IMG/VR virus record: IMGVR_UViG_3300045988_066341
DNA: 64,000 nt
Reading direction: 5' to 3' (one strand)
Source of the DNA: a virus
This document shows, piece after piece, positions 7,368 to 46,922 of this stretch (positions are counted from its first letter, which is position 1; each line of letters begins with the position of its first letter). The position numbers and the translations under genes are program-made. The notes below the pieces were generated by a model. It was not told the origin of the DNA, did not search any database, and was given only the letters and a program-made list of their open reading frames with translations.

Positions 7368-8120
7368 CTAATATTTTAAAGCCGCAACAGGATTACCCCA
7401 TTTCTTCTTCCATTCATGCCCAAGATAGTCTATAAGCTTATCATAAGTATCTATAAAGCCTCCATCTATAATGCCGGTAATAACATTCTCTACAGCTACT
7501 ATGTCGTTTAACTGATTCTTTGTGGCCGTATTCCTTATCCCACTCTCATGCTTGTTAAAGACGATAAAATTAATAGCCTTAGCTACCCTTGATATCTTAT
7601 CAGACAACTGACTCTTGTCGCTAACCAACCTGGCGACGGCCGAACTCATCTTGATATAAGCCTCGCCAGCGGCATTCCTGTCCTCTATGAATCCATCATG
7701 CAACCATATTATCACCTTGGCGTATATCTCTGGATCCAATTCCAATGCTACCATAACAAAAAAATACGGATTTACATACCATTTCTGACCCTCCCCCTTT
7801 CCTCTTCGGTAAGCCATTCCGTATTTTTTGAGATCGGTTATCTTATTGATTTTCAATTCATGGTTTTGTACCGTAAGATTTCTTACAGTACATATATCAT
7901 TAATACTCAGCTCCCTAACAAGAGCTTTCATCTTTTCCTGAAATCCATTAGTAGCAAACAAATGATCAAGCCTTCTAGACTCCAACCCCATAGATTTACG
8001 TTTTTCATTCAAGGCTTCCATAACTTCCGTTATGCATACAAACCCGTCCTTGGACATAACAGAAATGTTCCTACCTAATAATTCCCTACTCTCTGATGAT
8101 AAAATCAAATTACTTTTCAT
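7368..8120 (-). CDS. KilA-N domain DNA-binding protein (moron-like), paralog of 32740..33423
   Basis: Shares ...KWYVNPYFFVMVALELDPEIYAKVIIWLHDGFIEDRNAAGEAYIKMSSAVARLV with ...IWMHPLLFIKFAMWINPRFEVQVLKFVHDQLIDYRDKAGDAYRRMSSALSKIV in the paralog. The W-x-H/N-P...W...P-x-F pattern is typical of KilA-N. It has its own promoter box and terminator. Confidence 0.6.
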   Translation of the reverse strand: MKSNLILSSESRELLGRNISVMSKDGFVCITEVMEALNEKRKSMGLESRRLDHLFATNGFQEKMKALVRELSINDICTVRNLTVQNHELKINKITDLKKYGMAYRRGKGEGQKWYVNPYFFVMVALELDPEIYAKVIIWLHDGFIEDRNAAGEAYIKMSSAVARLVSDKSQLSDKISRVAKAINFIVFNKHESGIRNTATKNQLNDIVAVENVITGIIDGGFIDTYDKLIDYLGHEWKKKWGNPVAALKY

Positions 8121-18839: not shown

Positions 18840-19050
18840 CCTGCGGATAATCACTTATGTGGCGGATTCTATTGACATACTCCCATCACTAAAGCAAATG
18901 GGATTCTTGGATACAGACGCAAGAAACCCCGATATTACTATCGCTGGAATTACTCTTGCTCTCCAATTCGGAAATGCCCTTCCGAAGTATATTACGGGCC
19001 GCAAGAACATCACGGTCGTTGATAGACTCGCATTTTGGACAACACCATGT
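18840..19050 (-). ncRNA. predicted omega-RNA (reRNA) region of the TnpB element; boundaries not resolved
   Basis: Position only. TnpB guide RNAs are encoded across the 3' end of tnpB and the right transposon end. I cannot define the scaffold by eye. Confidence 0.25.
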
Positions 19051-20028
19051 GCGATCTCTCAACGACAAGTTTTTATTAACAAACCCGCATTCACAAGTCT
19101 TTGAGGAAGGATACCATTTGTCAATCTTATGTACTATCACTCCATACTTTGAAGCGATATACGTAAGTTTGTTAATAAAAGAAGAATGACTGAGATCAGA
19201 AACTTTCTTTCCCCACAAACGTTTCATTCCTTCAATGTTTAGATCTTCAATGAAAATATAATCATATCGCTTGCACAATTCATGAGCTAATTTCCATTGA
19301 AAATCAGATCGAAAATCGTTTATTTTACGATACGCTTGTTGAAGTTCAAACAGTCTTCTTTTTCTATTATTGGATCCTTTCTTCGCATTAGAAAACTTTC
19401 TATTTAGTTTTCTAATCTTGTTTTGATATTGCTTGAAGAATAATGGAGACCCAATTTTGTTACCATCACTTTTAGTTAGGTAAGTTTTCAGACCAAAATC
19501 CAATCCTACAGATGCACCATCATATGTCTTTCTGTAAGAGTTTGCAGGATTGTAATCTGTAACTATAATCAAACTAAAACGATAGCAGGTTTCTCTGACT
19601 ATTCTTATTTGTTTAACATTACCTTCATATGCTCTACTGTATGAAAACTTAAAACGTTTCTTTCCTTTGTTGATTGTGAGAATATTACCATTTAGAGTAA
19701 ACCCTCCTTGTTTAAAAACAAAAGAGTTGAAACAATCTGATCTTTTAAACTTAGGTGGTCTCTTTGATTTTCTTTTAAAGAAACGATTATAAGATTCATC
19801 AAGACGTTCAAGTATTTCTTGTGTTGTTTGAGAATGAAGAAGATTTCTTTTAATTCTTTTAGCAAAATGCTTCTTCATTTTACCAATTGAGATATATTTC
19901 CCAAACAGTTTATAGTATCTACGTTGTAGAGCTAAAGCATGATTCCATACAAAACAACATTCACGAAGCATTTTATCAAGATACTTCGTTTTCTTGGATC
20001 TGTATATATTATATTTGTAGGAAATCAT
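18889..20028 (-). CDS. tnpB: TnpB RNA-guided endonuclease (IS200/IS605 accessory protein, OrfB)
   Basis: RuvC triad contexts are SVGLDFGLK, YIFIEDLNIEG and NDRDVLAARNI. The zinc finger is CECG...CCPKC. N-terminus and length (379 aa) are typical. Confidence 0.9.
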   Translation of the reverse strand: MISYKYNIYRSKKTKYLDKMLRECCFVWNHALALQRRYYKLFGKYISIGKMKKHFAKRIKRNLLHSQTTQEILERLDESYNRFFKRKSKRPPKFKRSDCFNSFVFKQGGFTLNGNILTINKGKKRFKFSYSRAYEGNVKQIRIVRETCYRFSLIIVTDYNPANSYRKTYDGASVGLDFGLKTYLTKSDGNKIGSPLFFKQYQNKIRKLNRKFSNAKKGSNNRKRRLFELQQAYRKINDFRSDFQWKLAHELCKRYDYIFIEDLNIEGMKRLWGKKVSDLSHSSFINKLTYIASKYGVIVHKIDKWYPSSKTCECGFVNKNLSLRDRTWCCPKCESINDRDVLAARNILRKGISELESKSNSSDSNIGVSCVCIQESHLL

Positions 20029-20840: not shown

Positions 20841-21560
20841 TTACTCACCTATTCTTACAATACAGTCACGAGACTCCTTGTTGTAGATCATCGTGCCTAC
20901 CTTAGAATACAAGGTCTTTATATTTTGCCAATTATCCTCACCATGAGCGGATACGTTAGTGGGAGCGTCACCGGTATAAACCTCCTCGCCTCCGATATTG
21001 ACAAAATCATATCCACGTTTCTCCATAGAACCGCCCTTATATGCCGTGAACCTGATAGTGACATCACCTTTCTCACGACCACCATACCAGTTACCGTATA
21101 TACTGCATCTGATCTCAAGAGGTAATTTATCATAATTATCACCATCCAACAACGGTCCCATCTGGATCAAAGCTGCCTCATTACCCGATTCCATGTTATC
21201 ACCACCATGGATGAGATAATCACCTACCCGTTCCTGCGTGGTCTGGTACTGTTTACTCCAACCAACCAGCTTGCCGTCAACATCCGGGAGGCCGGTGTTA
21301 TCGAAACCGGTAGCCGTGTCAAAGTCAATGCCGTCCTCGTCAGCCCAGATATACCTAAGCACTAGGTAGTCGAACTCCGGGATAATAACCACCGGGACCG
21401 ACTCCTGCCTGCACACGAACGTCTTCTCCTCCTTGGTGCCTTCTTTTATAACCTTGTACGTAGCCTGACGTATCTCTCCAGTCTCATTGATATCAGCGGT
21501 AACCCTAACCTCAGCAGGTCCGGTACCACTTGTCTTATCTAAATGTATCCAATCAGCCAT
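20841..21560 (-). CDS. BACON-like domain virion protein sharing a domain with the 799-aa fibre protein
   Basis: The N-terminus ADWIHLDKTSGTGPAEVRVTADINETGEIRQATYKV is BACON-like. The rest aligns with the central part of 44518..46917 (VGW...GGDN..SG.E...YKGG[ST]M...GY[DN]F[VI]N.GG..VY). Confidence 0.55.
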   Translation of the reverse strand: MADWIHLDKTSGTGPAEVRVTADINETGEIRQATYKVIKEGTKEEKTFVCRQESVPVVIIPEFDYLVLRYIWADEDGIDFDTATGFDNTGLPDVDGKLVGWSKQYQTTQERVGDYLIHGGDNMESGNEAALIQMGPLLDGDNYDKLPLEIRCSIYGNWYGGREKGDVTIRFTAYKGGSMEKRGYDFVNIGGEEVYTGDAPTNVSAHGEDNWQNIKTLYSKVGTMIYNKESRDCIVRIGE

Positions 21561-21574
21561 ATCATCGTATTTTG

Positions 21575-22459
21575 TTAAACCAGTTTAATATACTTATCAA
21601 AAGCGTTGGGCCACATACGCTCATAAGACAGCATCCTCCTCCTATTATCCTCAGCCAGCTCCCGGTAATCATTCAAGGTAATCATCGACATCTTAAGCTC
21701 TTTCATGGCCCTAGCGAACTTACCCGGCTCCTGCTGGGCGTATAGTTTATAAGCATCACCAGCCCCTTGTATCAAACCGTTAACGGCGGCGTTCTCGAAG
21801 ATCTTCATCTTGATATACGTCTCGACATAATCCTCAAGATAACCTAACGCCGTTTCAGGTATATACGGGAGACCGTCATCATCCTTGGGTGTAGCACGAT
21901 ATATGATGTAAATAAATCCATCAAACCCAGTATACATAGTATTGCCAGATATAGTTATATCATAATTATCCCAAGCATATTTATCCCGATACTTGTCGGA
22001 GGCGCAATCACGTCTCAACCCACGACCTATAGACAGCCTTACGGGGTGATGGTAATGGAAGCGAACCTCGTGAGACCCGATATATAGCTTCTCCGTGATC
22101 GTCTTCTCAAACTCCTCCTTACAGCACTCCGTGCAGGAGTTCCAACGGAAGCCGCGCTCGGTGCGCTCGACCCAGCCGATCTCGTGTTGGAGGTCAGCCT
22201 TAGCCTTATCGCCCCCCGGAATCTCACAGACAAGAGGCTCACACCTATAGGCGTCAAGCATGTCGAAGAAATCGGAAGGTAATACCGCCTGTTTGTTGCT
22301 GGTCTTGACAATCGCCTCGGACATGACGGCTATAACACCCCCAAACCTTTTTAAAGCGATCTCAGCCCACCTATAAACAGATGAGGTATCTATAGCCCCG
22401 CTATCATCGTATTTATGTAAATCGGCCTTGATCTCGGCCAATAAGCCCTTTATCGTCAT
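21575..22459 (-). CDS. hypothetical virion-module protein, 294 aa
   Basis: Start moved to ATG 22459 (MTIKGLLAEIK...), 17 nt below a TATCTTTG box. The track's 5' extension runs through the upstream terminator. Confidence 0.55.
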   Translation of the reverse strand: MTIKGLLAEIKADLHKYDDSGAIDTSSVYRWAEIALKRFGGVIAVMSEAIVKTSNKQAVLPSDFFDMLDAYRCEPLVCEIPGGDKAKADLQHEIGWVERTERGFRWNSCTECCKEEFEKTITEKLYIGSHEVRFHYHHPVRLSIGRGLRRDCASDKYRDKYAWDNYDITISGNTMYTGFDGFIYIIYRATPKDDDGLPYIPETALGYLEDYVETYIKMKIFENAAVNGLIQGAGDAYKLYAQQEPGKFARAMKELKMSMITLNDYRELAEDNRRRMLSYERMWPNAFDKYIKLV

Positions 22460-22475
22460 ATTTAAGTCTTTTGCA

Positions 22476-22483
22476 CAAAGATA
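22476..22483 (-). promoter_or_regulatory. -7 promoter box (TATCTTTG)
   Basis: TAnnTTTG on the minus strand, 17 nt upstream of ATG 22459. Confidence 0.5.
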
Positions 22484-22502
22484 TGTATTTGAATCCGTGA
22501 TA

Positions 22503-22540
22503 CAAAAAAAATCCAGTCTACCCTCACGGGCTAACTGGAT
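22503..22540 (-). terminator. rho-independent terminator after 22552..23019
   Basis: Stem ATCCAGT/ACTGGAT plus an inner CCC/GGG stem with a GTGA loop on the minus strand, followed by T8. Confidence 0.55.
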
Positions 22541-22551
22541 CACAAAAACTT

Positions 22552-23019
22552 CTACAGTTTGTAAACCCATTTAACTCCAAATACCTTACTCTCCGATTCA
22601 ACCTCCCGGTACAAGAACTTATATCTCCTACCTGATTCCATAGCCAACCTACACTCCCTGTTCAACGCCGGAGAAATATAGAGATGGAAATACTTGTTCC
22701 GAGGCATAAAATCAATACACGTATGGACATAAGAATATCCACCCGTTCCACGTCTGTTAATAGTACCGGTAAGCTTATTTAGATATATCTTACGATTAGG
22801 ATTTATCTTATGGCACAGATAACCGATGTTGTTTATATAAACCCCACCCTCATTCTCCAGATACTTATCACGTATGGCCCTCCATATCAAGGACTGGCAT
22901 TCGAGAATATCATTCTTGTCCACGATCGTATGTTTCCTTCTCTTGCCGTTCTTAGACATAATAGATCTATAAAAACGGAGAAAGTACTGATCAAGTATTT
23001 TAAATGACTTTGTTTTCAT
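22552..23019 (-). CDS. hypothetical protein, 155 aa
   Basis: ORF only, with no motif I recognise. TATATTTG at 23024..23031 sits only 5 nt from the ATG, so the transcript may be leaderless. Confidence 0.45.
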   Translation of the reverse strand: MKTKSFKILDQYFLRFYRSIMSKNGKRRKHTIVDKNDILECQSLIWRAIRDKYLENEGGVYINNIGYLCHKINPNRKIYLNKLTGTINRRGTGGYSYVHTCIDFMPRNKYFHLYISPALNRECRLAMESGRRYKFLYREVESESKVFGVKWVYKL

Positions 23020-23081
23020 ATCACAAATATAACGATTTCATCCTAATACAAGAAATTTATACACAAAAATATACCGCCTGC

Positions 23082-23177
23082 ACCAAGGACGAGGCAAACA
23101 GAATAGCCGACAGCAACCTACAGTCAGACGGTATCTCTTACGCTAATGGCTTGGCGCAGGCCGATAGATGCGATTGC
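23082..23177 (+). repeat. inverted repeat copy A of the cassette-switch site
   Basis: 96 nt with 6 mismatches to the reverse complement of 25366..25461. The last 43 nt are identical. Confidence 0.9.
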
Positions 23178-23450
23178 CTCGAAACATGGAGCGCTTACGC
23201 TAGCGGAAGTTTTAATGGACAATGCTTAAGTATATCCGTAAGTTATGATAATCCATGTGGTAAATCTAAAACAGCATCATTTGATGTATATTATACTAGA
23301 TCTGAACCATCTGGAGATGTAGAATATTTCTCTACCACTAAAACAGTCACCATACCATCCGGATCGGGAACGGTATCAGGCGGAAGTGATTGTGTTAGCA
23401 ATGCTACAAGCATGTATGTATCTAATCCAAGTCAAGGTGGAGGCTGTTAA
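23178..23450 (+). other. silent alternative C-terminal tip cassette A (90 aa, no start of its own)
   Basis: Encodes LETWSAYASGSFNGQCLSISVSYDNPCGKS...TVTIPSGSGTVSGG...SQGGGC, in frame with repeat copy A. It is homologous to, but highly diverged from, the expressed tip at 25078..25365. Confidence 0.75.
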
Positions 23451-23454
23451 AAAC

Positions 23455-23486
23455 AAAAAGGAGAGGTTGATTATCCTCTCCTTTTT
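23455..23486. terminator. bidirectional terminator hairpin attached to cassette A
   Basis: AAAAAGGAGAGG, an 8-nt loop, then CCTCTCCTTTTT. The arms are identical to those of the hairpin at 25027..25058. Confidence 0.65.
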
Positions 23487-23757
23487 ATATAAACCTAAGA
23501 TCTTTTCTATTAGTATGATTTAATATCCTACTAATATGTCTGGTACTTAATCCCGTTCTTTCCTTTATCTTATCATAGATATAACCCTTGGATACGTAAG
23601 CTGATATATCCCCAAGATCCTTTATGATCTTGTCATACATATCGTGCACCTCATTATATCTTATGATAGAGCTGTCTCTCATCCCTCTTTCGCCTATACC
23701 GTCAACTATGGCGTCATTGAAACCAAAGAAATTGATTATTGATCTTATTAGATTCAT
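23485..23757 (-). CDS. small helix-turn-helix protein, 90 aa, inside the invertible segment
   Basis: Start placed at ATG 23757, directly after the upstream stop. The C-terminal ERTGLSTRHISRILNH looks like an HTH. Confidence 0.45.
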   Translation of the reverse strand: MNLIRSIINFFGFNDAIVDGIGERGMRDSSIIRYNEVHDMYDKIIKDLGDISAYVSKGYIYDKIKERTGLSTRHISRILNHTNRKDLRFI

Positions 23758-23758
23758 G

Positions 23759-24454
23759 TTATTGAATTTTTTGTGTTTTCTTATTAATATCCATATCCGG
23801 GTTCTCATCCGTAGGGATCTGCAATTTGGTTACAGTTTCCCTTAATGTTTCGGAAACCACATATTCAAGAAGTTTGTCTGGGCATATGAAATCATAATCC
23901 CATTGAGATGTACATGGCTTATCTTTTTCAGCTCCACATCCCCCTAGCTCTAACGCCGCTTTTCTGTCGAGAGTTATAAGATCAACATTTATAGCCTCTA
24001 TGTTAATATCTGGTATATAGATATATCCATCATTGACATAATAATAGTATTGATCTATATTCCCGTATTTACGTTCCTTGTTGTTAGCGTATTTTCTTAA
24101 CGATATGGAGGTAAATATAATATCATCCATGATATTTGATACTTTGATGATAGCCGGACCTATACGGGTATATATCATATCGGGCAATCTTTTCTTGGAT
24201 CTCATAAGTATCCTGCATAGTTTAAACTCATCAAAACAACAATCAATTTTCCGAACCCTCTCCATCTCCATGCAATTGATATGAGTATACAGTGATTCCT
24301 CGCCGAACAAGGTTCCATCAGCATACTTCTGGGCTATATATGATCTTGCCTTTTGTCTTCCTATGGATAATATCCATCTCCTACTGACATGAGCGTCCTT
24401 ATTGATGGAGTTCATATCATTTATGATTCTAGATACAAATTCTGAATTTTTCAT
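23759..24454 (-). CDS. hypothetical virion-module protein, 231 aa
   Basis: ORF only, with no recombinase motifs. Confidence 0.5.
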   Translation of the reverse strand: MKNSEFVSRIINDMNSINKDAHVSRRWILSIGRQKARSYIAQKYADGTLFGEESLYTHINCMEMERVRKIDCCFDEFKLCRILMRSKKRLPDMIYTRIGPAIIKVSNIMDDIIFTSISLRKYANNKERKYGNIDQYYYYVNDGYIYIPDINIEAINVDLITLDRKAALELGGCGAEKDKPCTSQWDYDFICPDKLLEYVVSETLRETVTKLQIPTDENPDMDINKKTQKIQ

Positions 24455-24492
24455 ATGCTAAATACTGAGGAGGGGATATACCCCTCCGGTTA

Positions 24493-24594
24493 TTACTTCT
24501 TTTTCTTAACCTTGCCTCCACATTTCAGTTGAGGTTTCTTTTTCTCGGAGACCTTGCCTCCATTAGCCATTTTCTTTTTCTTATTGCAAGCCAT
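24493..24594 (-). CDS. possible Lys-rich micropeptide, 33 aa
   Basis: Hand translation MACNKKKKMANGGKVSEKKKPQLKCGGKVKKKK. It is followed by the hairpin GGAGGGG/CCCCTCC. Support is weak. Confidence 0.2.
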   Translation of the reverse strand: MACNKKKKMANGGKVSEKKKPQLKCGGKVKKKK

Positions 24595-24682
24595 AACTTA
24601 ATGTATTAATATTAACGATACAATATTAATGATTTTAATTAATAGATAAACAATACGCATTGAATAAGCTAAATTCACATCA

Positions 24683-24738
24683 AGTCAGACGGCACCTCTT
24701 ACGCTAATGGCTTGGCGCAGGCGGATAGATGTGATTGT
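24683..24738 (+). repeat. inverted repeat copy B of the cassette-switch site
   Basis: 56 nt with 3 mismatches to the reverse complement of 25366..25421. The first 40 nt are identical. Confidence 0.9.
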
Positions 24739-25011
24739 CCACAAAATTGGAGTGCCAACGTGGTAGACTACAGTGAAAGCGGAAGTTGTATTAACTTTAC
24801 TGTGGAATACAGTAATCCGTGTAGTTCCAGCAAAACCATAACAGTGACAGGAGGAGCGGAAGCGAATACCTCCACGGGTATGGAGATGACCACTAGTACT
24901 ACGGTTACGATAGGTACTGGTAGTGGATCTACTAGTGGTAGAATGTGTTTTCAAGCGGCCATAAGACCAGGAACGGCGCATGCGGCTTGTACCACAGGTG
25001 GACAATGCTGA
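24739..25011 (+). other. silent alternative C-terminal tip cassette B (90 aa, no start of its own)
   Basis: Encodes PQNWSANVVDYSESGSCINFTVEYSNPCSS...TVTIGTGSGSTSG...TTGGQC. The frame opens only 4 codons before the repeat, just after a TAA. Confidence 0.75.
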
Positions 25012-25026
25012 TAATGTATATACAAT

Positions 25027-25058
25027 AAAAAGGAGAGGTTAGTTAGCCTCTCCTTTTT
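25027..25058. terminator. bidirectional terminator shared by the expressed gene and cassette B
   Basis: AAAAAGGAGAGG, an 8-nt loop, then CCTCTCCTTTTT, lying between convergent stops 25011 (+) and 25075 (-). Confidence 0.65.
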
Positions 25059-25074
25059 ATTATATATCAGACTC

Positions 25075-28000
25075 TTAACATTGACCACCAGCTCTTCCAC
25101 TTATATTGATAGAATTACATGGATATCCACGATCAAAAGATATCGTGGCCTTTTTAGTGCCTGATCCAGTAGGTATAGTTACTGTCGTACTCCCGATAGT
25201 AGTTCCTGAGCTTGAGGCTGTTACCGTCAAACTCTTCTGCGTAGTACATTCATTACTATACGTAATCTCGACCTCTACTCTTAGCGCTGAAGTGCCCGAA
25301 GGAGCGCCATTGCAAGGATCACCATCGGCATAAGCGTTGGCTGACCAATTCTTCGTTGGCTCCACGCAATCGCATCTATCGGCCTGCGCCAAGCCATTAG
25401 CGTAAGAGGTGCCGTCTGACTGTAGGTTATTGTCGGCTATCCTATTTGCCTCGTCCTTGGTACAAGCCTCATATTTACCAGCGATTTGCTTATAACTGAT
25501 AGTCTTAGGAGTACAGTTGCTAGGACAGTTCGTGGCCTTGACATTTCCCCATCGGTCATCATTGCCAACCTTAGAAGGGCATGTCTTAGCATTAACAAGA
25601 ATCTGAAGAGCCTCCTTAGCGCTAGAATAAGCATCATAAGCGGCGCTAGACGCATCTTTAGCCGTGCTCCTGCAATATTCTCCGGCAGAAACAACCTTCA
25701 TAGGGCTACTAGGAGCGCATACATCACCACATTCGCCCGAACATCCCTTACATACCTCATTGGTATAGATAGTGTAGTCATATGGATTACAACAATGCTC
25801 ACCGCCATTCTGCCAATATCCCGTAGGATCACACTCGCTAGAATAATGCTCCTCGCTATTACCATTATTACACCTGCTATTATCCATACGGTATGTATTA
25901 TCACATCCGCATCCACAAGATCTTGAATCGGACTCAACCAACTCATCTTGATCTAAGGCTGAAGAACAAGGATTGGTCTGATTCCTACTCCTACGATAAT
26001 CGCATCCACTACAATAATAATTCCAATCATCATAAGATGGGGTATCATCGTCATCTGCGCAATCACCATTCTTGTTAGCGTAAGCCTGAGCGGCGGTCTT
26101 AGTCGCCGTATCATTCTTGAAAGCGTTTTGAACCTTGCTGTCGGCATCCGCCTGAGATACGGTAGATGTCAACGCTGACAATCCTAAGGCACTATAAGGA
26201 ACGGATAGAGCGACACCATGTTTACATGTACCACAATTATCCTTATAGAACGTAGCGCTTCCAGTACCGGTCCACACACAAGTGCCATGCTGGTTAGCGT
26301 AATCCTGTCCTCTCTGGTCTAGGATCTGCTCTGCCTTGCTCCTGGCATCAGCCAAAGAAACCTTGCTGGTGATAGGCGTACCGCCGTTGGCTTGCGTAGA
26401 GGTCACCGTTATTCTCTGACCAACCCCGCTTCCGGCGCAATTGTTCTTATAGAAGTCACGGCTTGCCACGTAAGTCCAAGTACATCCACCGTTCTTATTG
26501 GCGTAGTTCTGTCCATCGGCTCCACGAACAGCATTCTCGGCCTTCTTATTAGCGTCAGCCAAAGATATGTTGGAGGTATACGGATGTCCCGGCAGCCTGT
26601 CGCTACTTACGGATACCATGTCGCCTACGCCGCCATCAGCGCAATTGTTCTTCTGAACCTGACCGGTATAGCTTCCTGTCCAAGTACAAGTGCCCTTCGA
26701 GTTGGCCACGGCCTGACCCTGAGAGTTCACGGCGGCCAATGCCTTGGCGTTAGCGTCAGCTTGGGATACACATGACTTAAACTTACCATCAGAGCTAGGA
26801 CTTGGATCCGTAACATCATTCTGAGTTACGGTAACAGAGCTTCCAACTCCACCATCCGCACATTGACGGGTAAAGGCCTTGGATGCCGTACCAAACCAGA
26901 AACATGTATTATTACCACCAGCTATATACCGCTCTTGATTATCAGGATCAGTATAACAGGTATTGGTGTTACGTTGATGTAACTGAGAGATACAGTCCTT
27001 ACATACAGTCTCTATAGTCTCCCATACCGGTTGCTCGGTCTTCGTATGGCACGTATCATCGTAGTTCTTGTTGACGAACGCCTGACCCATTCTGTCGATA
27101 TAGGCCTTAGCCAAAGCGTCTGCCTCTTCCTGAGAACGGGTTGAGGTGAAGAACTGACCCATAAGATCCGGGGTTACGGTAATAGGATCAGCGTACTGAC
27201 AAGTAGGACATTTAGGAGTGAACTCCTTGCTATAATTACCTACATATATCTTCAGCTCATCACAAGTACCACGATCATTGGCTATAGCCTGACCTTGCGC
27301 CTTGACAGCGGCCTTGGCAAGCTCATCGGCGGCGAACTGGCTCTCATAAGAATAGAACGGACCACCAGTGACATCAGCCTCCGTAACGTTAACAGATGAA
27401 GGTATCAATCCGGATGGACAATTATTCTTCTCGAACACCTCACTATAATGACCGGTGTACTTAGGAGCCTCATGGCAAGTACCACGCTCATCGGCAACCC
27501 TCTGTCCTTGATTCATGACAGCGGCCATAGCCACCAAGTTAGCCTCATCCTGCGATACGCAAGACTGGAACGGATGACCATCGACCATATCCTGTGTCAC
27601 GGTGAACGGATCTCCTATCTGATTAGCTCCACAATTGCTCTTAGTGAACTCGAAGCTAGCCCTACCGGTATACATAGTAGCGTCAGAACAAGTACCCCTG
27701 GTGTTAGCCAAAGCCTGTCCTTGAGCCTGTACGGCGGTCATGGCCATAGCGTCAGCGGCGGTCTGGGAGTCGTTAGACTGGAATGGGTGTCCTTCTACCA
27801 TATCTTGGGAGATCGTCACCTTAGATCCGATCTTACACTCACCACAGTTGTTTCTCGTGAACTCCAAGGAAGCACGGCCGGTGTACGTACAAAGGGCGTG
27901 GATATTGGCAAGGGCCTGTCCTTGGGCGTCAACGGCGGCCTTGGCCTTATTATTGGCATCCTCCTGAGATACGGTAGACGTGAACGGATAACCGTCAACC

Positions 28001-29538
28001 ATCCTATCATTTACCGTATAAGTACCACCAGTGCCAGTACCACAATTGTTACGGGTAAACGTACGTGTATAAGTACCGGTATATACAGGCACCTTCTCGC
28101 ACTTACCTTTCACGTTAGCCACATCCTGACCTTGAGCCTCGACGGCGGCCTTAGCCTTATTGTTGGCGTCTTCCTGAGATACGGTAGACCTGAAATCCCC
28201 TGTCACCATAGTCTCATCCACGGTAACCTTGGTTCCGTACTGAGTCTTATCGCAATTGTTTCTGGTAAATTCCTTGCTATACTTACCGTAGTAGATCGTC
28301 TTCTCCTTACACTCACCTTCTAGGTTGGCTTGTTGCTGGGCGTTAGCCTCAAGATCAGCCTTAGCCTTATCATCAGCGTCCTTCTGGGAGATAATAGAGA
28401 AGTACTTACCAGCGGAAACGACATAAGTATAAGGTTGACCGATATGGAACTCATCACAATTATTTCTCGTGACTGTCTTCTCCATCCTTACGTTATAGTA
28501 TACGTTAGTCTGACAGTCGCCACGCTCGTTGGTGATAGCCTGACCTTGCGCCTCGACAGCGTCCTGCGCCAGCTTGTTGGCGGCATCCTGCGATACCGTA
28601 GAAGTGAACGGATATCCAGAACACATCTTCTCGTCCACAGTGAAGTCAACAGGAGTAGAACCCTCAGGGCAGTTGGTTCTCTGGAATACCTTGGAGTACG
28701 ATCCGGTAAATACCGGTATCTTCTCACAGTTACCCTTGATATTCGCTATATCCTGACCTTGAGCCTCGACAGCAGCCCTTGCTAGGCTATTAGCGTCTTC
28801 CTGAGACACGATGGATCTGAAGTCTCCCGTAACCATCGTCTCGTTAACAACCACATCCGTACCGTATTGGGTGGAATCACAATTGTTACGGGTAAAGGTC
28901 TTGCTAAACTTACCATAATAGATATTCTCCTTAGGCTTACACTCACCCTCCAAATTGGCTTGTTGTTGACCGTTCTTCTCAATGTCCTCAATAGCCTTCC
29001 TATCGGCGTCCTCCTGAGAGATGGAAGATACGTACTTTCCCTCAGGAATGATATAAACATATTCCTGACCGTCACTGAACTTATCGCAATTATTACGTAT
29101 AAACGTCTTTCTCTGCTCCTCGTTATACCAGATATCAGTTATACACTCACCATGCTCGTTGGCGTATTTCTGACCGTTCAGGGCTATATCCTCCATAGCC
29201 TTGGCGTCTGCGTCCTCCTGCGAGATAAACGACTTGTAAGTCCTTTCCTCGACCGTATACAACACCACCGATCCATGCTGGTTGGCCAGACAGTCGTCCT
29301 TAGTGAACGGCTGAACCATCTTGATATTATAATAAACGGGCTTGGCGTCCTGAGCTATCATATACTCCTTGACAATATTACCGTCCTTTGACGTTATACG
29401 GAACTTAGCCGTACAGATCTGACCGGTATAATTAGCCTTGTATACGATATTAAGCTTATTATCGCCTACCCCATGGCTCTTGTCGTTAATGGCAAAGCAA
29501 TTACCCTCGACACAATTCTTATCTATTTCCCTTGCCAT
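25075..29538 (-). CDS. 1487-aa Cys-rich tandem-repeat fibre-like protein with a switchable C-terminal tip
   Basis: About 16 repeats of 68-75 aa, with consensus F[TQ][RK]NNC...VSQ[ED]DAN.KA.AAV.AQGQ..AN..G.C. These are followed by a Cys-dense linker and a 96-aa tip ending GGQC. Confidence 0.8.
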   Translation of the reverse strand: MAREIDKNCVEGNCFAINDKSHGVGDNKLNIVYKANYTGQICTAKFRITSKDGNIVKEYMIAQDAKPVYYNIKMVQPFTKDDCLANQHGSVVLYTVEERTYKSFISQEDADAKAMEDIALNGQKYANEHGECITDIWYNEEQRKTFIRNNCDKFSDGQEYVYIIPEGKYVSSISQEDADRKAIEDIEKNGQQQANLEGECKPKENIYYGKFSKTFTRNNCDSTQYGTDVVVNETMVTGDFRSIVSQEDANSLARAAVEAQGQDIANIKGNCEKIPVFTGSYSKVFQRTNCPEGSTPVDFTVDEKMCSGYPFTSTVSQDAANKLAQDAVEAQGQAITNERGDCQTNVYYNVRMEKTVTRNNCDEFHIGQPYTYVVSAGKYFSIISQKDADDKAKADLEANAQQQANLEGECKEKTIYYGKYSKEFTRNNCDKTQYGTKVTVDETMVTGDFRSTVSQEDANNKAKAAVEAQGQDVANVKGKCEKVPVYTGTYTRTFTRNNCGTGTGGTYTVNDRMVDGYPFTSTVSQEDANNKAKAAVDAQGQALANIHALCTYTGRASLEFTRNNCGECKIGSKVTISQDMVEGHPFQSNDSQTAADAMAMTAVQAQGQALANTRGTCSDATMYTGRASFEFTKSNCGANQIGDPFTVTQDMVDGHPFQSCVSQDEANLVAMAAVMNQGQRVADERGTCHEAPKYTGHYSEVFEKNNCPSGLIPSSVNVTEADVTGGPFYSYESQFAADELAKAAVKAQGQAIANDRGTCDELKIYVGNYSKEFTPKCPTCQYADPITVTPDLMGQFFTSTRSQEEADALAKAYIDRMGQAFVNKNYDDTCHTKTEQPVWETIETVCKDCISQLHQRNTNTCYTDPDNQERYIAGGNNTCFWFGTASKAFTRQCADGGVGSSVTVTQNDVTDPSPSSDGKFKSCVSQADANAKALAAVNSQGQAVANSKGTCTWTGSYTGQVQKNNCADGGVGDMVSVSSDRLPGHPYTSNISLADANKKAENAVRGADGQNYANKNGGCTWTYVASRDFYKNNCAGSGVGQRITVTSTQANGGTPITSKVSLADARSKAEQILDQRGQDYANQHGTCVWTGTGSATFYKDNCGTCKHGVALSVPYSALGLSALTSTVSQADADSKVQNAFKNDTATKTAAQAYANKNGDCADDDDTPSYDDWNYYCSGCDYRRSRNQTNPCSSALDQDELVESDSRSCGCGCDNTYRMDNSRCNNGNSEEHYSSECDPTGYWQNGGEHCCNPYDYTIYTNEVCKGCSGECGDVCAPSSPMKVVSAGEYCRSTAKDASSAAYDAYSSAKEALQILVNAKTCPSKVGNDDRWGNVKATNCPSNCTPKTISYKQIAGKYEACTKDEANRIADNNLQSDGTSYANGLAQADRCDCVEPTKNWSANAYADGDPCNGAPSGTSALRVEVEITYSNECTTQKSLTVTASSSGTTIGSTTVTIPTGSGTKKATISFDRGYPCNSINISGRAGGQC
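25366..25461 (-). repeat. expressed-copy inverted repeat of the cassette-switch site
   Basis: Encodes TKDEANRIADNNLQSDGTSYANGLAQADRCDC. The 27-nt core (25382..25408) is identical in all three copies. Confidence 0.9.
25462..29307 (-). repeat. in-frame tandem array of about 16 domain repeats
   Basis: Repeats were delimited by eye from the protein. Repeats 2-4 and 5-7 look like a higher-order triplet duplication. Confidence 0.75.
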
Positions 29539-31853: not shown

Positions 31854-32699
31854 TTACCAATAACATTGATCCTCTTGATCAATATTCTCAATCCATTTCT
31901 CGCACTCAAGATTAAGATCAGCGTACTCCTGCCCCTCTACCATCAAAACCTCACGGGCTTTGGCGTTGGCATCCTCTACTGATATCCATGATCTAAACCT
32001 ATTGGCTTTGATAGAATAATATACCCTACCTGATTTATATCCAAACGGACATACCTTCTCAAACCAATCACCGATCGTAGTATTATAGAATACAGGGGAG
32101 CAACTACCTTCGGAGTTAGCCTTCTCCTGACCTTCTTTCATGAACTTCCTATAAGCTAACGTATCAGCATCAATCTGGGATATATCAGATATGACAGCTC
32201 CGGCTGGCAATTCATACACAATACCTTCTTTACCTGATGTCCCGGTCTCACAATCGTTCTTGTAAAACAAGCCACGAAGAGGCTGTGAGGCCCAGTCCTC
32301 GCAGCAAGCCCCAACGGCGTTGGCCTCCCCCTGCCCGATCCTTCCAAGCTCAACCATCGCCTTATCATTGGCGTCTTTCTTGGATACGTATGACACAAAC
32401 CTACCTTTCTCTACACATATCTGTTCCTTGGATCCCTTACCGCTTACGCAATTGTTCTTGATAAACTCATCGCATACCTGATCATTATACCATACAGCCG
32501 GTATTATGTCGGCATATGTGTTGGCGTAATCCTGACCGTTGGCATTGACATCATCCTCAGCCTTACTATCAGCCTCCTCCTGCGTATCGCCAAAATAAAC
32601 ATTGGCCGGGACCCGGTAGTCAACAGAGCCGCCCACGTACCCGGCAGGCGGGTTGTTTTTGGTGAACGTCCGTACTATTTCTTTATTACTGTATATCAT
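31854..32699 (-). CDS. four-repeat paralog of the 1487-aa repeat protein, 281 aa
   Basis: Four copies of the same F.KNNC...S..DA[ND].KA....GQ..AN..G.C repeat. Confidence 0.65.
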   Translation of the reverse strand: MIYSNKEIVRTFTKNNPPAGYVGGSVDYRVPANVYFGDTQEEADSKAEDDVNANGQDYANTYADIIPAVWYNDQVCDEFIKNNCVSGKGSKEQICVEKGRFVSYVSKKDANDKAMVELGRIGQGEANAVGACCEDWASQPLRGLFYKNDCETGTSGKEGIVYELPAGAVISDISQIDADTLAYRKFMKEGQEKANSEGSCSPVFYNTTIGDWFEKVCPFGYKSGRVYYSIKANRFRSWISVEDANAKAREVLMVEGQEYADLNLECEKWIENIDQEDQCYW

Positions 32700-32739: not shown

Positions 32740-33423
32740 TTACAAAGGAAGAGCCTTTTTGCTTCTCAAAACCTTATACAGATAATCCCTTAACTGTTCC
32801 TCGGTAACTATATATCCAAATTCAATCATCTTAGCTATATCAATCTCCAGCTCCATCAACTCCTTAGCCTTGGCCTCCTCGCCAACGGAATTTCTTATCA
32901 TAGTCTCATGAAGACCGTAAACTATTATATTCAAAGATCTAGCTAAATCCTGTATTTTATCTTTAAACCTTGATGAGTCCACGATTTTAGATAAAGCGGA
33001 AGACATTCTCCTATAAGCATCACCAGCCTTATCTCTGTAATCTATAAGTTGATCATGTACAAACTTCAAAACCTGAACCTCAAATCTAGGATTTATCCAC
33101 ATGGCGAATTTTATAAATAACAAAGGATGCATCCATATCTTATCAGGTGTCTTGCCATGTTTTGTAACTCTACCTTTTACTTTTACAAATAACTGATTAT
33201 CACCATTGTCCATTTTTGGACTATGGCTTTCATCATCCTTTAGAGCTTCTAAAAATTCTATGGTTTTAGGACTATCTATAAATACAGAAAACTTTCTTCT
33301 TATGTTATCGGGATTATCATTCCATTGCTTAAGTAAACTGTTGGCATCAAAATAACCATCACTAGTTCTTTGAAAAACGTTAAAATCACCCATTTTTCTT
33401 GTCAAAACATTTACCGTCTTCAT
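32740..33423 (-). CDS. KilA-N domain DNA-binding protein (moron-like), paralog of 7368..8120
   Basis: See 7368..8120. The same conserved block is present, with the same upstream box-plus-inverted-repeat layout. Confidence 0.6.
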   Translation of the reverse strand: MKTVNVLTRKMGDFNVFQRTSDGYFDANSLLKQWNDNPDNIRRKFSVFIDSPKTIEFLEALKDDESHSPKMDNGDNQLFVKVKGRVTKHGKTPDKIWMHPLLFIKFAMWINPRFEVQVLKFVHDQLIDYRDKAGDAYRRMSSALSKIVDSSRFKDKIQDLARSLNIIVYGLHETMIRNSVGEEAKAKELMELEIDIAKMIEFGYIVTEEQLRDYLYKVLRSKKALPL

Positions 33424-46917: not shown

Positions 46918-46922
46918 TCAGA

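What the first reader, a model, noticed from the sequence alone, without database searches (positions are those of the whole stretch)
23082..25461. Shufflon-like inversion system that could swap the C-terminal tip of the 1487-aa repeat fibre protein
The expressed gene 25075..29538 (minus) ends ...KYEACTKDEANRIADNNLQSDGTSYANGLAQADRCDC, followed by a 96-aa tip (25078..25365) ending GGQC. On the opposite strand sit two partial frames with no start codon and no promoter, and both open with the same peptide. Cassette A reads ...KYTACTKDEANRIADSNLQSDGISYANGLAQADRCDC. Cassette B reads ...SDGTSYANGLAQADRCDC and is preceded 4 codons upstream by an in-frame TAA. Each then encodes a different 90-aa tip (23178..23450 and 24739..25011). 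The three tips keep a few landmarks: NWSA/TWSA, Y-[SD]-N-[PE]-C, TVTI-x-[ST]-GSG and a terminal GG[QG]C. Otherwise they are divergent, and I cannot align them at the nucleotide level. The segment in front of the tips, by contrast, is an inverted repeat. 25366..25461 versus 23082..23177 is 96 nt with 6 mismatches, and the last 43 nt are identical. 25366..25421 versus 24683..24738 is 56 nt with 3 mismatches. A 27-nt core, ctcttacgctaatggcttggcgcaggc, is identical in all three copies. The silent copies are inverted relative to the expressed gene. A crossover in the core would therefore invert the intervening 0.6 kb (for B) or 2.2 kb (for A, which carries genes 23485..24454 and cassette B). Either inversion would fuse a new tip in frame onto the 16-repeat shaft. 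This is the logic of the Mu G and P1 C segments and of the R64 shufflon, applied here to a putative receptor-binding tip, so it would give programmed host-range or phase variation. No serine or tyrosine recombinase is recognisable in this window. The enzyme must be elsewhere in the genome, host-encoded, or novel. A 90-aa HTH protein (23485..23757) lies inside the invertible segment.
Basis: partly seen in the sequence, partly recalled or inferred. Interest (0 to 1): 0.9.

Follow-up and report, generated by a model that had tools for sequence, protein, structure and literature searches.

The report
Invertible tail-fibre tip cassettes, crAss-like phage
A large crAss-like gut phage keeps two silent, upside-down copies of the end piece of its long tail fibre, and public assemblies show genomes in which DNA flipping has swapped these end pieces onto the fibre, apparently without any dedicated flipping enzyme, which would let the phage change what it binds to.

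Summary
A 27-nt core occurs three times (0 expected by chance). It sits in a 96-116-nt inverted repeat and a 56-79-nt inverted repeat. Each copy is followed by a different ~90-aa tip and a hairpin terminator.

The window is a ~154-kb epsilon-type crAss-like phage. The gene is a fibre with 16 DUF5977 repeats. Both predicted inversions exist in public assemblies:
- The 0.6-kb flip appears in L099 and L120.
- The 2.2-kb flip, which also turns the Ring-2 structural gene, appears in L064, L371 and L372 and in shaft-tip A contigs from six other assemblies.

Flipped genomes are 98-100% identical to unflipped ones inside the segment, so flipping is recent and recurrent. At least 11 tip classes circulate among the three positions.

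I found no serine or tyrosine recombinase in about 140 of 154 kb. The repeat copies evolve in concert within genomes. A sister lineage has the same layout built on an unrelated repeat sequence. The phage encodes RecA and a Holliday-junction resolvase.

Best reading: a Mu/P1-like tip switch driven by homologous recombination. This is a new variant of a known kind. Still untested are within-sample mixtures, the switching rate, and receptor binding by the tips.

The parts
25075..29538 (-). Expressed fibre gene: N-terminal region, 16 DUF5977 repeats, Cys-rich region, repeat-encoded joint, tip E.
   Evidence: The ORF is 1487 aa. Pfam DUF5977 scores 8.4e-223 with 16 stretches. The homologous fibre in phage csAssE-Sib is 41% identical.
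25361..25476 (-). Repeat copy S, at the 3' end of the shaft. It encodes ...KYEACTKDEANRIADNNLQSDGTSYANGLAQADRCDC. The zone shared by all three copies is about -13 to +41 around the core at 25382-25408.
25078..25365 (-). Tip E, currently fused to the shaft (96 aa, ends GGQC).
   Evidence: The AF2 model is a 7-strand beta-sandwich with block-mean pLDDT 71-96. In IMG/VR loci tip E is on the shaft 20 times and in a silent position 5 times.
25024..25060 (.). Bidirectional hairpin terminator shared by tips E and B. It stays between them after the 0.6-kb inversion.
   Evidence: D15, I3, I4. Folding gives -27 to -28 kcal/mol and z = -7.6 on both strands.
24739..25011 (+). Silent tip B cassette. It has no in-frame start upstream of the repeat, and a TAA lies 4 codons before the repeat.
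   Evidence: Tip B is fused to the shaft in L099 and L120.
24659..24738 (+). Repeat copy R2, next to the Ring-2 gene. Effective homology is 24683-24738.
   Evidence: (I2).
24493..24596 (-). Small lysine-rich ORF upstream of Ring-2, followed by an AT-rich stretch (24597-24680). An internal promoter for Ring-2 must lie in that stretch if both orientations are viable (inferred).
   Evidence: Read directly from the sequence. A 47-aa gene is called at this place in L370. No promoter was shown.
23759..24454 (-). crAss Ring-2 tail protein gene, carried inside the 2.2-kb invertible segment.
   Evidence: Pfam CrAss_Ring_2 scores 1.9e-25 and phrog_9863 scores 1.5e-28. The gene is inverted relative to its flanks in 8 of 75 loci.
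23485..23757 (-). 90-aa ORF of unknown function, translationally coupled to Ring-2. It is clade-specific and absent from the cassette-less relative csAssE-Sib.
   Evidence: The protein is helical with mean pLDDT 65 and has no significant fold or sequence hit.
23452..23488 (.). Bidirectional hairpin terminator after tip A. It would terminate the fibre gene after the 2.2-kb inversion, and it terminates the 90-aa ORF now.
   Evidence: D15. z = -4.8 on both strands.
23178..23450 (+). Silent tip A cassette.
   Evidence: In IMG/VR loci it is silent 48 times and on the shaft once. Seven further shaft-tip A contigs come from metagenomes.
23067..23182 (+). Repeat copy P155, next to the 155-aa gene.
   Evidence: (I1).
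23024..23071 (-). Two Bacteroidota-type TAnnTTTG promoter-like motifs upstream of the 155-aa / Ring-1 genes, just outside or at the edge of the invertible segment.
   Evidence: This is a motif match only.

Best explanation
**What it is.** This is a tail-fibre tip switch that works by DNA inversion.
- The last conserved coding segment of the fibre shaft encodes ...KY-x-ACTKDEANRIAD-x-NLQSDG-x-SYANGLAQADRCDC. It is present three times: once at the end of the expressed gene, and twice in inverted orientation in front of promoterless tip cassettes.
- Each cassette is followed by a bidirectional terminator.
- Reciprocal crossover between the shaft copy and an inverted copy flips either 0.6 kb or 2.2 kb. 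The larger segment includes the Ring-2 gene and the 90-aa ORF.
- Either flip joins a different ~90-aa beta-sandwich tip in frame to the 16-repeat shaft and parks the displaced tip in the silent position.
- Successive flips move tips among all three positions.

**How the exchange most likely happens.** It is most likely ordinary homologous recombination acting on 47-130 nt of perfect identity. The phage's own RecA and Holliday-junction resolvase would carry it out during replication, rather than a dedicated site-specific invertase.

**Shown.** The anatomy, the existence and recurrence of both isomers in nature, gene conversion of the repeats, and the presence of RecA and a resolvase.

**Inferred.**
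- RecA catalyses the flip.
- Flipping happens within a population at a useful rate.
- The tip binds the host receptor.
- Ring-2 has its own promoter inside the segment.
- The essential Ring-2 gene between the two directly oriented silent copies makes deletion products inviable and so preserves the cassettes.
For: **Anatomy.**

**Isomers.**
- 0.6-kb flip: L099 and L120.
- 2.2-kb flip: L371, L064 and L088, L372-L378 and L036.
- P0146 is a 634-nt shaft-flank + A-type-tip fragment.
- 8 of 75 loci have the Ring-2 segment inverted.

**Recurrence.** Each inverted genome's nearest neighbour over the 950-nt internal segment is an unflipped genome at 98.3-100% identity. The median over all pairs is 96%. 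This implies at least 5 independent events.

**Shuffling of tips.**
- Classes seen on the shaft in IMG/VR loci: E, G, F, B, A, I.
- At the R2 position: B, F, G, E, H.
- At the P155 position: A, G, E, H.
- ORFs at the P155 position in the protein database carry A, B, E, F, G, I, K, L and M tips.

**Homology-driven exchange.**
- Repeat copies within a genome are more alike than copies between genomes (permutation p = 0.0002). This holds even for the flank-side part, -66 to -14, which a fixed crossover in the core could never move.
- The sister lineage L368/L369 has the same three-site layout on an unrelated repeat (...NGDKAALTAAAQADAQRLAQEKANAMECDC) at 96-100% identity between copies.
- Pfam RecA scores 2.6e-90, with a Holliday-junction resolvase (phrog_1770, 8e-18) next to it, plus PD-(D/E)XK and other exonucleases.
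- No serine or tyrosine recombinase hit in the window, in +-10 kb, or in a further ~57 kb of the same phage clade. None is annotated in the 151-kb relative csAssE-Sib.

**Selection.** 46 of 46 complete silent A cassettes keep an open frame to the stop (43 at the modal length, 3 with a 9-nt insertion), with pN/pS 0.48. For B, 22 of 25 are at the modal length and 2 are truncated, with pN/pS 0.64.
Against: - All isomer evidence comes from consensus assemblies, mostly short-read. Repeats of 50-130 nt can break or mis-orient assembly graphs. The IMG/VR shaft-tip A junction L016 is a contig end, and L036 also begins at a repeat.
- No reads were available, so mixtures within one sample were not shown.
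- About 12 kb of the genome was not seen, and only ORFs of 120 aa or more were scanned.
- Many proteins have no family hit, so a novel or divergent recombinase, or a host invertase, is not excluded.
- All repeat types share the TGCGATTGC (CDC) codons, which could be a minimal site.
- Gene conversion of the repeats could run in parallel with a site-specific enzyme.
- Homologous recombination should also delete between the two directly oriented copies. I did not look for such products.
- Tip function is inferred from position and fold only. Foldseek gave no hit better than E = 0.005.
- The protein database does not index the long fibre proteins, so there is no large census of shaft-fused tips.
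Confidence: 0.6

Rival explanations
1. The layout and outcome are the same, but the flip is catalysed by a dedicated site-specific recombinase. This could be a serine or tyrosine invertase encoded in the unseen ~12 kb, an unrecognised phage protein (for example the 90-aa or 155-aa ORF products, or another orphan), or one of the many invertases of a Bacteroidales host. It would act on a short site inside the repeat.
For: - This is how every characterised phage fibre inversion (Mu Gin, P1 Cin, e14 Pin, p15B Min) and the R64 shufflon work (established knowledge; reviewed in PMC9881135).
- The first 15 nt of the core are nearly invariant among partner copies that were not used as the search bait.
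- Both repeat types end in TGCGATTGC.
- The 90-aa ORF is clade-specific and came in together with cassette A between Ring-2 and the 155-aa gene.
- Many phage ORFs have no family hit.
Against: - No Resolvase, Recombinase or Phage_integrase hit appeared in about 140 of 154 kb or in the relative's annotation (29, 31, 32, 51).
- The 155-aa protein has a syntenic homologue in csAssE-Sib, which has no cassettes or inverted repeats.
- 90 aa is too small for a known recombinase and has no fold match.
- The repeat is far longer than any known core site.
- An unrelated repeat serves in the sister lineage.
- Flank-side markers are homogenised between copies, which a fixed crossover cannot do.
Confidence: 0.25
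2. There is no ongoing switch. The cassettes are leftovers of rare evolutionary rearrangements or exchanges between co-infecting relatives. Alternatively, the 'isomers' are assembly artefacts at the repeats. In either case each phage lineage is in practice fixed for one tip.
For: - Consensus assemblies are strongly skewed. Tip A is silent 48 times and on the shaft once, and tip B is silent 26 times and on the shaft 1-2 times.
- Several loci begin exactly at the repeat, which is typical of graph breaks.
- The F/G pairs with the longest perfect tracts are the ones near 50:50, as orientation errors would also predict.
- L374 looks chimeric.
- Deletion variants that destroy the core of cassette A exist (P0129).
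Against: - Full traversals of both repeats with unique sequence on each side occur in independent assemblies made with different assemblers (L064, L099, L120, L371, L372).
- Orientation is not random: 3-12% of loci are flipped for the A and E/B pairs.
- Flipped and unflipped genomes can be 100% identical inside the segment.
- The displaced tip is always found at the reciprocal position.
- Concerted evolution of the repeats requires repeated exchange.
- Silent cassettes stay intact.
Confidence: 0.1
3. The 'silent' cassettes are independent small genes. Examples are the 148-aa ORF starting at ATG 23004, or the 'MECDC...' ORFs of the sister lineage. Their products would act separately, for instance as soluble tip domains or decoys, and inversion would be incidental.
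For: - Gene callers call the P155-position ORF in hundreds of assemblies (P0121-P0123 and others).
- The ORF is open from an ATG.
- In the type-2 lineage the R2 cassette has an in-frame ATG inside the repeat.
Against: - The 21-codon leader is the antisense of the promoter and start region of the 155-aa gene.
- No TAnnTTTG motif was found on the + strand anywhere in 22900-25600. Sigma-70-type matches there are no more frequent than in shuffles.
- Cassette B in this window has a stop 4 codons before the repeat and no ATG.
- Every cassette begins with the shaft's own last segment, in the shaft's frame, which only makes sense as a splice point.
- The same tips are found fused to the shaft elsewhere.
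Confidence: 0.05

Closest known systems
Mu G segment / Gin, P1 C segment / Cin, e14 Pin, and the p15B Min multiple-inversion region (serine-invertase tail-fibre switches)
   Same: A constant N-terminal fibre part lies outside an invertible segment, and alternative C-terminal parts lie inside it in opposite orientation. Inversion splices a new C-terminus in frame. As in p15B Min, more than two crossover sites allow nested inversions and many isomers. The expected outcome is a change of host range.
   Different: - No Gin/Cin-type invertase gene lies beside the segment or elsewhere in about 140 kb.
- The repeats are 56-116 nt of coding sequence rather than 26-bp gix/cix sites, and they differ completely between sister lineages.
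- No paired chaperone (U/U') genes are present.
- The segment carries an essential virion gene (Ring-2).
- The host phage is a crAss-like podovirus of the gut, with no integrase detected in the ~140 kb examined.
R64 / IncI1 shufflon (Rci tyrosine recombinase acting on 19-bp sfx repeats in pilV)
   Same: Several C-terminal cassettes for one adhesin-type gene are shuffled by inversion between repeats that lie in the coding sequence.
   Different: No Rci-like tyrosine recombinase and no sfx-like 19-bp consensus were found. There are three sites rather than seven. The repeats are long and undergo gene conversion.
Campylobacter fetus sap locus: recA-dependent nested inversions among S-layer gene cassettes (from my own knowledge of Dworkin, Shedd and Blaser, J Bacteriol 1997; I could not retrieve the paper here)
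   Same: Programmed-looking variation is achieved by homologous recombination between long conserved coding segments of oppositely oriented cassettes. There is one expression site, the inversions are nested, and no dedicated invertase is involved.
   Different: In sap the conserved segment is at the 5' end and a promoter is moved, the repeats are about 600 bp, and the system is bacterial. Here the conserved segment is the 3' joint of a phage fibre shaft, the repeats are 50-130 nt, and RecA is phage-encoded. RecA dependence is not tested.
Gene-altering programmed inversions such as Type I R-M hsdS switches (surveyed in PMC9881135)
   Same: There is gene/pseudogene size asymmetry, inverted repeats inside coding sequence, and C-terminal specificity-domain swapping. 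Phage tail fibre genes are listed among the enriched targets.
   Different: Those loci normally have an adjacent tyrosine or serine recombinase and are chromosomal or prophage-borne. In that paper crAss appears only in a cited reference title, about host phase variation.
Diversity-generating retroelements on crAss-like and other phage fibres
   Same: The purpose is the same: diversifying the distal end of a receptor-binding protein. The nearest sequenced relative, csAssE-Sib, uses a DGR on another fibre.
   Different: There is no reverse transcriptase and no TR/VR pair at this locus. The three tips differ throughout (51-55% nucleotide identity), not at adenines only.
Large inverted-repeat genome isomerism in Anabaena cyanophages (bioRxiv 10.64898/2026.02.14.705889)
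   Same: Phage segments flanked by inverted repeats are found in both orientations. [quoted passage not shown]
   Different: In the cyanophages a ~30-kb block flips between 400-700-nt repeats with no gene splicing. Here the flip rewrites a fibre gene.

Membership tests
Serine-invertase fibre switches (Mu Gin / P1 Cin / p15B Min) | A serine invertase gene (Resolvase N-terminal domain plus HTH) adjacent to the invertible segment | tested here: not met
   Pfam gave no such hit in any tested window ORF of 120 aa or more. None is in the precomputed Pfam for +-10 kb. None appeared in a further ~57 kb of the same phage clade. About 12 kb remains unseen.
Serine-invertase fibre switches (Mu Gin / P1 Cin / p15B Min) | Short (~26 bp) imperfectly palindromic crossover sites conserved across members | tested here: not met
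   The repeats are 56-116 nt. The sister lineage uses an unrelated repeat. I compared them with hix/gix sequences only from memory and saw no resemblance.
Serine-invertase fibre switches (Mu Gin / P1 Cin / p15B Min) | Constant N-terminal fibre part outside the invertible DNA and alternative C-terminal parts inside it | tested here: met
Serine-invertase fibre switches (Mu Gin / P1 Cin / p15B Min) | Recombinational enhancer and Fis dependence | not testable with these tools
   This needs biochemistry.
R64-type shufflon | Rci-family tyrosine recombinase | tested here: not met
   No Phage_integrase hit appeared in the same searches as listed above.
R64-type shufflon | Multiple segments bounded by a common repeat, giving several C-termini for one gene | tested here: met
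   There are three repeat copies and nested 0.6-kb and 2.2-kb inversions. At least 11 tip classes circulate in the population.
RecA-dependent nested inversion (Campylobacter fetus sap type) | Oppositely oriented cassettes sharing a long conserved coding segment, with a single expression site | tested here: met
RecA-dependent nested inversion (Campylobacter fetus sap type) | Inversion requires RecA | not testable with these tools
   The evidence is indirect only. A phage RecA (2.6e-90) and a Holliday-junction resolvase are present. Gene conversion is seen along the whole repeat. The repeat sequence is interchangeable between lineages.
Diversity-generating retroelement | Reverse transcriptase plus a template repeat differing from the variable repeat at adenines | tested here: not met
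   No RT hit appeared among the ORFs scanned. The tips are 51-55% identical over their whole length. The relative csAssE-Sib has an annotated DGR elsewhere.
Crassvirales (crAss-like phages), epsilon-type large genomes | crAss-specific structural genes in conserved order | tested here: met
   Pfam CrAss_Ring_1, CrAss_Ring_2 and Crass_capsid all hit. The window is syntenic with the 151-kb phage csAssE-Sib. Contigs of the same phage are about 150-160 kb.

The most novel reading that the evidence does not exclude
This is a recombinase-free, phage-RecA-driven, multi-cassette inversion switch for the receptor-binding tip of a virulent crAss-like phage. Each burst would then contain a minority of virions with alternative tips. 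That would be a phage counterpart to the phase-variable surfaces of its Bacteroidales host. The essential Ring-2 gene, placed between the directly oriented cassettes, would act as a built-in guard against cassette loss.
Probability: 0.4. Interest if true: 0.85.

Novelty: new variant of a known kind. Interest (0 to 1): 0.78.

Why it matters
crAss-like phages are among the most abundant viruses of the human gut. They coexist for years with hosts that vary their capsules and surface proteins by DNA inversion. How the phages keep up is an open question, and so far only DGRs and point mutation have been invoked.

A tip-swapping inversion in a widespread ~154-kb crAss-like lineage would give the phage side its own bet-hedging device. 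The lineage appears in hundreds of contigs, and one cluster of the 90-aa ORF product alone has 2367 member sequences.

It would also show that the Mu/P1 design can be rebuilt without an invertase, using only repeats and general recombination.

Practically, it defines a natural, modular splice point (...DRCDC) and a library of at least 11 exchangeable tips for engineering or predicting host range. It also warns that assemblies of these phages break or mis-orient here.

Tried and rejected
- **GenBank phages.** Megablast of the locus against GenBank phages found nothing. Only unannotated fragments and the distant csAssE-Sib turned up.
- **155-aa neighbour as invertase.** Rejected. It has a syntenic homologue in a phage without cassettes and no family hit.
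- **90-aa ORF as a Hin-like HTH or directionality factor.** Nothing supports this beyond two C-terminal helices.
- **TnpB (18889-20028) as the enzyme.** Rejected. It is a mobile IS605-type element found at different places in different genomes, including inside the segment.
- **IS1595 transposase.** It was seen in one contig. It is an insertion sequence, not an invertase.
- **412-aa orphan in the early region.** No hit in Pfam, PHROGs, NCBIfam or PDB, and no recombinase motif by eye.
- **Protein-database census of shaft-fused tips.** This failed because the long fibre proteins are not retrieved by the index.
- **First attempt to reach the rest of the genome through a csAssE-Sib protein.** It returned only csAssE-Sib-like contigs.
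- **Fold searches of the tip.** They gave only generic beta-sandwich / CBM-like similarities, with no hit better than E = 0.005.
- **Core in bacterial genomes.** It is absent from 185,579 species genomes, so there is no host or prophage clue.
- **Fine mapping of crossover points.** Not possible, because the copies are identical over the relevant stretch.
- **Literature.** Seven searches found no description of this system.

Full report
**1. The observation**

The finding is accurate.
- The fibre ORF 25075-29538(-) encodes 1487 aa with 16 DUF5977 stretches.
- The 27-nt core CTCTTACGCTAATGGCTTGGCGCAGGC occurs at 23135(+), 24696(+) and 25382(-) and nowhere else, even allowing 3 mismatches. Shuffles gave 0 matches.
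- The repeat finder extends the arms to 116 nt (89%) and 79 nt (84%).
- Past the ...DRCDC codons identity falls to 51-55% in nucleotides and 37-41% in protein.
- Each tip is followed by a strong hairpin with U tracts on both strands (z = -4.8 to -7.6). The one at 25024-25060 is shared tail-to-tail by tips B and E.

Two corrections apply. Cassette A lies in a mechanical ORF with an ATG at 23004. The 'HTH' label of the 90-aa ORF could not be verified.

**2. Context**

The window is a crAss-like phage.
- Pfam finds CrAss_Ring_1 at 21575-22570, CrAss_Ring_2 at 23759-24454 and Crass_capsid at 53752-55455.
- The only related complete GenBank genome is phage csAssE-Sib (151 kb). Its fibre is 41% identical, and gene order is shared.
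- Contigs of the same phage are about 150-160 kb, so the window is about 40% of the genome.
- The 2.2-kb segment contains the Ring-2 tail gene, the 90-aa ORF and cassette B.
- csAssE-Sib has no inverted repeats or cassettes after its fibre. It lacks the 90-aa ORF. It diversifies a different fibre with a DGR.

**3. Do the predicted inversions exist?**

I classified each core copy by its upstream flank and its downstream tip. The flanks are shaft 'S', Ring-2 side 'R2' and 155-aa-gene side 'P155'.

| Position | Tip classes seen (counts) |
|---|---|
| S (shaft) | E ~20, G ~19, F ~10, B 2, A 1, I 1 |
| R2 | B 26, F 6-7, G 5, E 4, H 1 |
| P155 | A 48, G 2, E 1, H 1 |

*The 0.6-kb flip.* L099 and L120 are the window with 24738-25366 inverted, at 98.6-99.2% identity. 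Tip B is on the shaft and tip E lies next to the Ring-2 flank.

*The 2.2-kb flip.*
- L036 joins the tip E repeat to 23177->21576.
- The ENA scaffold L371 joins 21053-23177 to one contiguous block 25467->23452 at 98.6%.
- A junction-specific scan of metagenome contigs, using a shaft anchor, a gap and a tip A anchor, gave seven contigs from seven different assemblies.
- In L373, L375, L376 and L377 the shaft runs into tip A and its terminator, then the 90-aa ORF and Ring-2 follow in inverted orientation. L378 ends inside the 90-aa ORF.
- L372 (66.9 kb) contains both junctions. L374 has an extra TnpB-associated scramble and may be chimeric.

Over all loci holding the internal segment and a flank, 67 are canonical and 8 are inverted. 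The inverted ones include L064 and L088 from the unbiased core scan.

*Recurrence.* Every inverted genome's closest relative over the 950-nt internal segment is a canonical genome at 98.3-100% identity. L377 and L113 are identical. The overall median is 96%. At least five independent, recent inversions are therefore needed.

*Caveat.* These are consensus assemblies, mostly short-read, and some junctions sit at contig ends (L016, L036). The full traversals in independent assemblies and the non-random orientation frequencies argue against artefact, but I could not examine reads.

**4. A cassette library**

The protein database holds many ORFs that start with the P155 flank (MTLFSYHKYNDFILIQEIYTQ-KYTACTK...). 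They carry tips of classes A, B, E, F, G, I, K, L and M, some with tens to hundreds of member sequences. Together with H and J from IMG/VR, at least 11 tip classes circulate.
- All keep the W-S-A, N-x-C, T-V-T-I-P-x-G-S-G and terminal G-x-C landmarks.
- AF2 on this alignment gives a confident 7-strand beta-sandwich for the tip (block-mean pLDDT 71-96). The repeat-encoded part forms two helices at low confidence.
- Foldseek finds only weak, generic similarity to CBM and glycosidase beta-sandwich domains, with no hit better than E = 0.005. A glycan-binding role is plausible but not shown.
- All 46 complete silent A cassettes keep an open frame to the stop. 43 are at the modal length and 3 carry a 9-nt insertion. 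pN/pS is 0.48.
- For B, 22 of 25 are at the modal length and 2 are truncated. pN/pS is 0.64.

**5. Which enzyme?**

I found no serine or tyrosine recombinase family hit in any of the following:
- the tested window ORFs of 120 aa or more;
- the precomputed Pfam of the 10 kb on each side;
- a walk through about 57 kb more of the same phage clade, in contigs 075272 and 047203.

About 12 kb remains unseen. The relative's full annotation has none either.

What the phage does have:
- a bona fide RecA (Pfam 2.6e-90);
- a Holliday-junction resolvase next to it (phrog_1770, 8e-18);
- a PIF1-like helicase and a clamp;
- PD-(D/E)XK and other exonucleases.

The 155-aa gene beside the segment has a syntenic homologue in cassette-less csAssE-Sib. 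TnpB is a mobile passenger.

**6. Signatures of homology-driven exchange**

(a) In the alignment of 146 repeat copies, flank-linked variation stops at about -13 and tip-linked variation starts at +42 relative to the core. In between, the polymorphisms are linked to neither.

(b) Copies within one genome share derived variants. Within-genome paralogues differ less than between-genome paralogues.

| Copy pair | Interval | Within genome | Between genomes |
|---|---|---|---|
| S vs P155 | -66 to +40 | 6.6 | 11.0 |
| S vs P155 | -66 to -14 | 5.4 | 7.8 |
| S vs R2 | -13 to +40 | 1.8 | 3.3 |

The permutation p is 0.0002 for each. The -66 to -14 part lies on the flank side of the core. A fixed crossover in the core could never transfer it, so conversion or variable crossovers must occur.

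(c) The sister lineage L368/L369 has the same three-site layout, the same terminators and the same tip classes. Its repeat encodes ...NGDKAALTAAAQADAQRLAQEKANAMECDC and is 96-100% identical among its three copies over 73-103 nt. Mixed genomes (L032, L370) retain only 31-43 nt of repeat. What is conserved is identity between copies, not a particular site.

(d) Perfect-identity tracts are 47-80 nt (median) and up to 132 nt. By my knowledge of minimal homology requirements, that is enough for RecA-type recombination. F/G pairs (75 nt) are near 1:1, while B/E pairs (47 nt) are 15:2. This fits length dependence, but selection or assembly could equally explain it.

**7. How it most likely works**

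*Shown:* one expression site, two inverted promoterless cassettes, reciprocal inversions of 0.6 and 2.2 kb that occur repeatedly in nature, and gene conversion of the repeats.

*Inferred:*
- During replication the phage RecA and resolvase (or host equivalents) recombine the shaft repeat with an inverted copy.
- The terminator that follows each cassette then ends the new fibre transcript.
- Ring-2 and the 90-aa ORF must be driven from a promoter inside the segment, in the AT-rich stretch 24597-24680. The evidence is that genomes with the segment inverted are the dominant form in whole-genome contigs (L372; L375 comes from a 152-kb contig).
- The 155-aa / Ring-1 genes have their own TAnnTTTG motifs just outside the segment.
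- Recombination between the two directly oriented silent copies would delete Ring-2 and be lethal, which would keep the array intact.

I put about 0.9 on inversion-mediated tip exchange being real, and about 0.6 on homologous recombination as the mechanism.

**8. Comparison and novelty**

The logic is that of Mu G, P1 C and p15B Min, and of the shufflon. The defining enzymes and sites of those families were looked for and not found, so this is not a member of them.

The closest mechanistic parallel is the recA-dependent nested inversion of Campylobacter fetus sap genes (from my own knowledge). A 2026 preprint describes recombinase-less inverted-repeat isomerism in cyanophages, but without gene splicing.

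Seven literature searches found no description of fibre-tip inversion in Crassvirales. The systematic survey of gene-altering inversions covers bacterial genomes and prophages.

I rate it a new variant of a known kind.

**9. Verdict**

The finding is real, well observed and largely correctly interpreted. The main revision is the mechanism: homology-driven rather than invertase-driven. The main gaps are read-level proof of mixtures within a population, the switching rate, and tip function.

Noticed in passing
window 18889-20028 (-); also L054 8465-9604, L032 1176-2315, L374 5996-7241, L288 10904-12052: A TnpB / IS605 OrfB-type gene (Pfam OrfB_IS605 plus Cas12f1-like TNB). In other genomes of the same phage a near-identical TnpB element (99.4% nucleotide identity in L374) sits inside the invertible segment, between the 90-aa ORF and cassette A. 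A second TnpB lies in the early region. It is evidently mobile within this phage lineage.
   Followed up: partly
window 59580-63512 (-): The 1310-aa protein carries intein-splicing and LAGLIDADG hits in the precomputed Pfam. By synteny with csAssE-Sib it is the large terminase, which is 937 aa there. This looks like an intein-containing TerL.
   Followed up: no
L206 3010-3996 (= L213 10001-10987), about 7 kb beyond the right end of the window; L213 11615-12199: The phage encodes a bacterial-type RecA (2.6e-90) next to a PIF1-like helicase and a Holliday-junction resolvase. The cassette-less relative csAssE-Sib has a RuvC-type resolvase annotated but no RecA.
   Followed up: partly
L368 8066-8168 / 9679-9772 / 10420-10522; L370; L032 3579-3887: A second, unrelated repeat type (...NGDKAALTAAAQADAQRLAQEKANAMECDC) serves the same three positions in a sister lineage. 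Some genomes are hybrids in which the shaft and a cassette carry different repeat types, leaving only 31-43 nt of homology. These may be locked states.
   Followed up: partly
P0129 (129 aa; 6 contigs, longest 143 kb); window 23135-23200 for the repeats involved: This is a variant of cassette A with a 57-nt deletion between two 9-nt direct repeats (CTTACGCTA). The deletion removes most of the core and the DRCDC codons, so the cassette should no longer be able to recombine with the shaft.
   Followed up: no
window 31854-32699 (-): A second, short DUF5977 protein (281 aa, 4 repeats) lies a few genes upstream of the fibre. KilA-N proteins are at 32740-33423 and, more weakly, 7368-8120.
   Followed up: no
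L380 14890-15819 (contig IMGVR_UViG_3300045988_075272): An IS1595-family DDE transposase (3.8e-45) lies in the early region of one genome of this phage.
   Followed up: no
L001, L003, L010, L016, L021, L029, L033, L036, L079, L095, L106, L119 (locus ends); P0007 and similar clusters: Many stored loci begin within 40 nt of the core. Thousands of Logan/ENA contigs of 1.3-1.6 kb carry just the piece between the two direct repeat copies. Assemblies of this phage systematically break at the repeats.
   Followed up: partly
L121 7491-8066 and 8159-9556 (csAssE-Sib 45751-47816): The nearest sequenced relative has an annotated DGR (VR, TR, reverse transcriptase) on a different putative tail fibre and no inversion cassettes. 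Two related phages thus use different ways of diversifying fibres.
   Followed up: no
window 24493-24596 (-): A 33-codon, very lysine-rich ORF (MACNKKKKMANGGKVSEKKKPQLKCGGKVKKKK) lies between cassette B and Ring-2. A 47-aa gene is called at this place in a related contig (L370).
   Followed up: no
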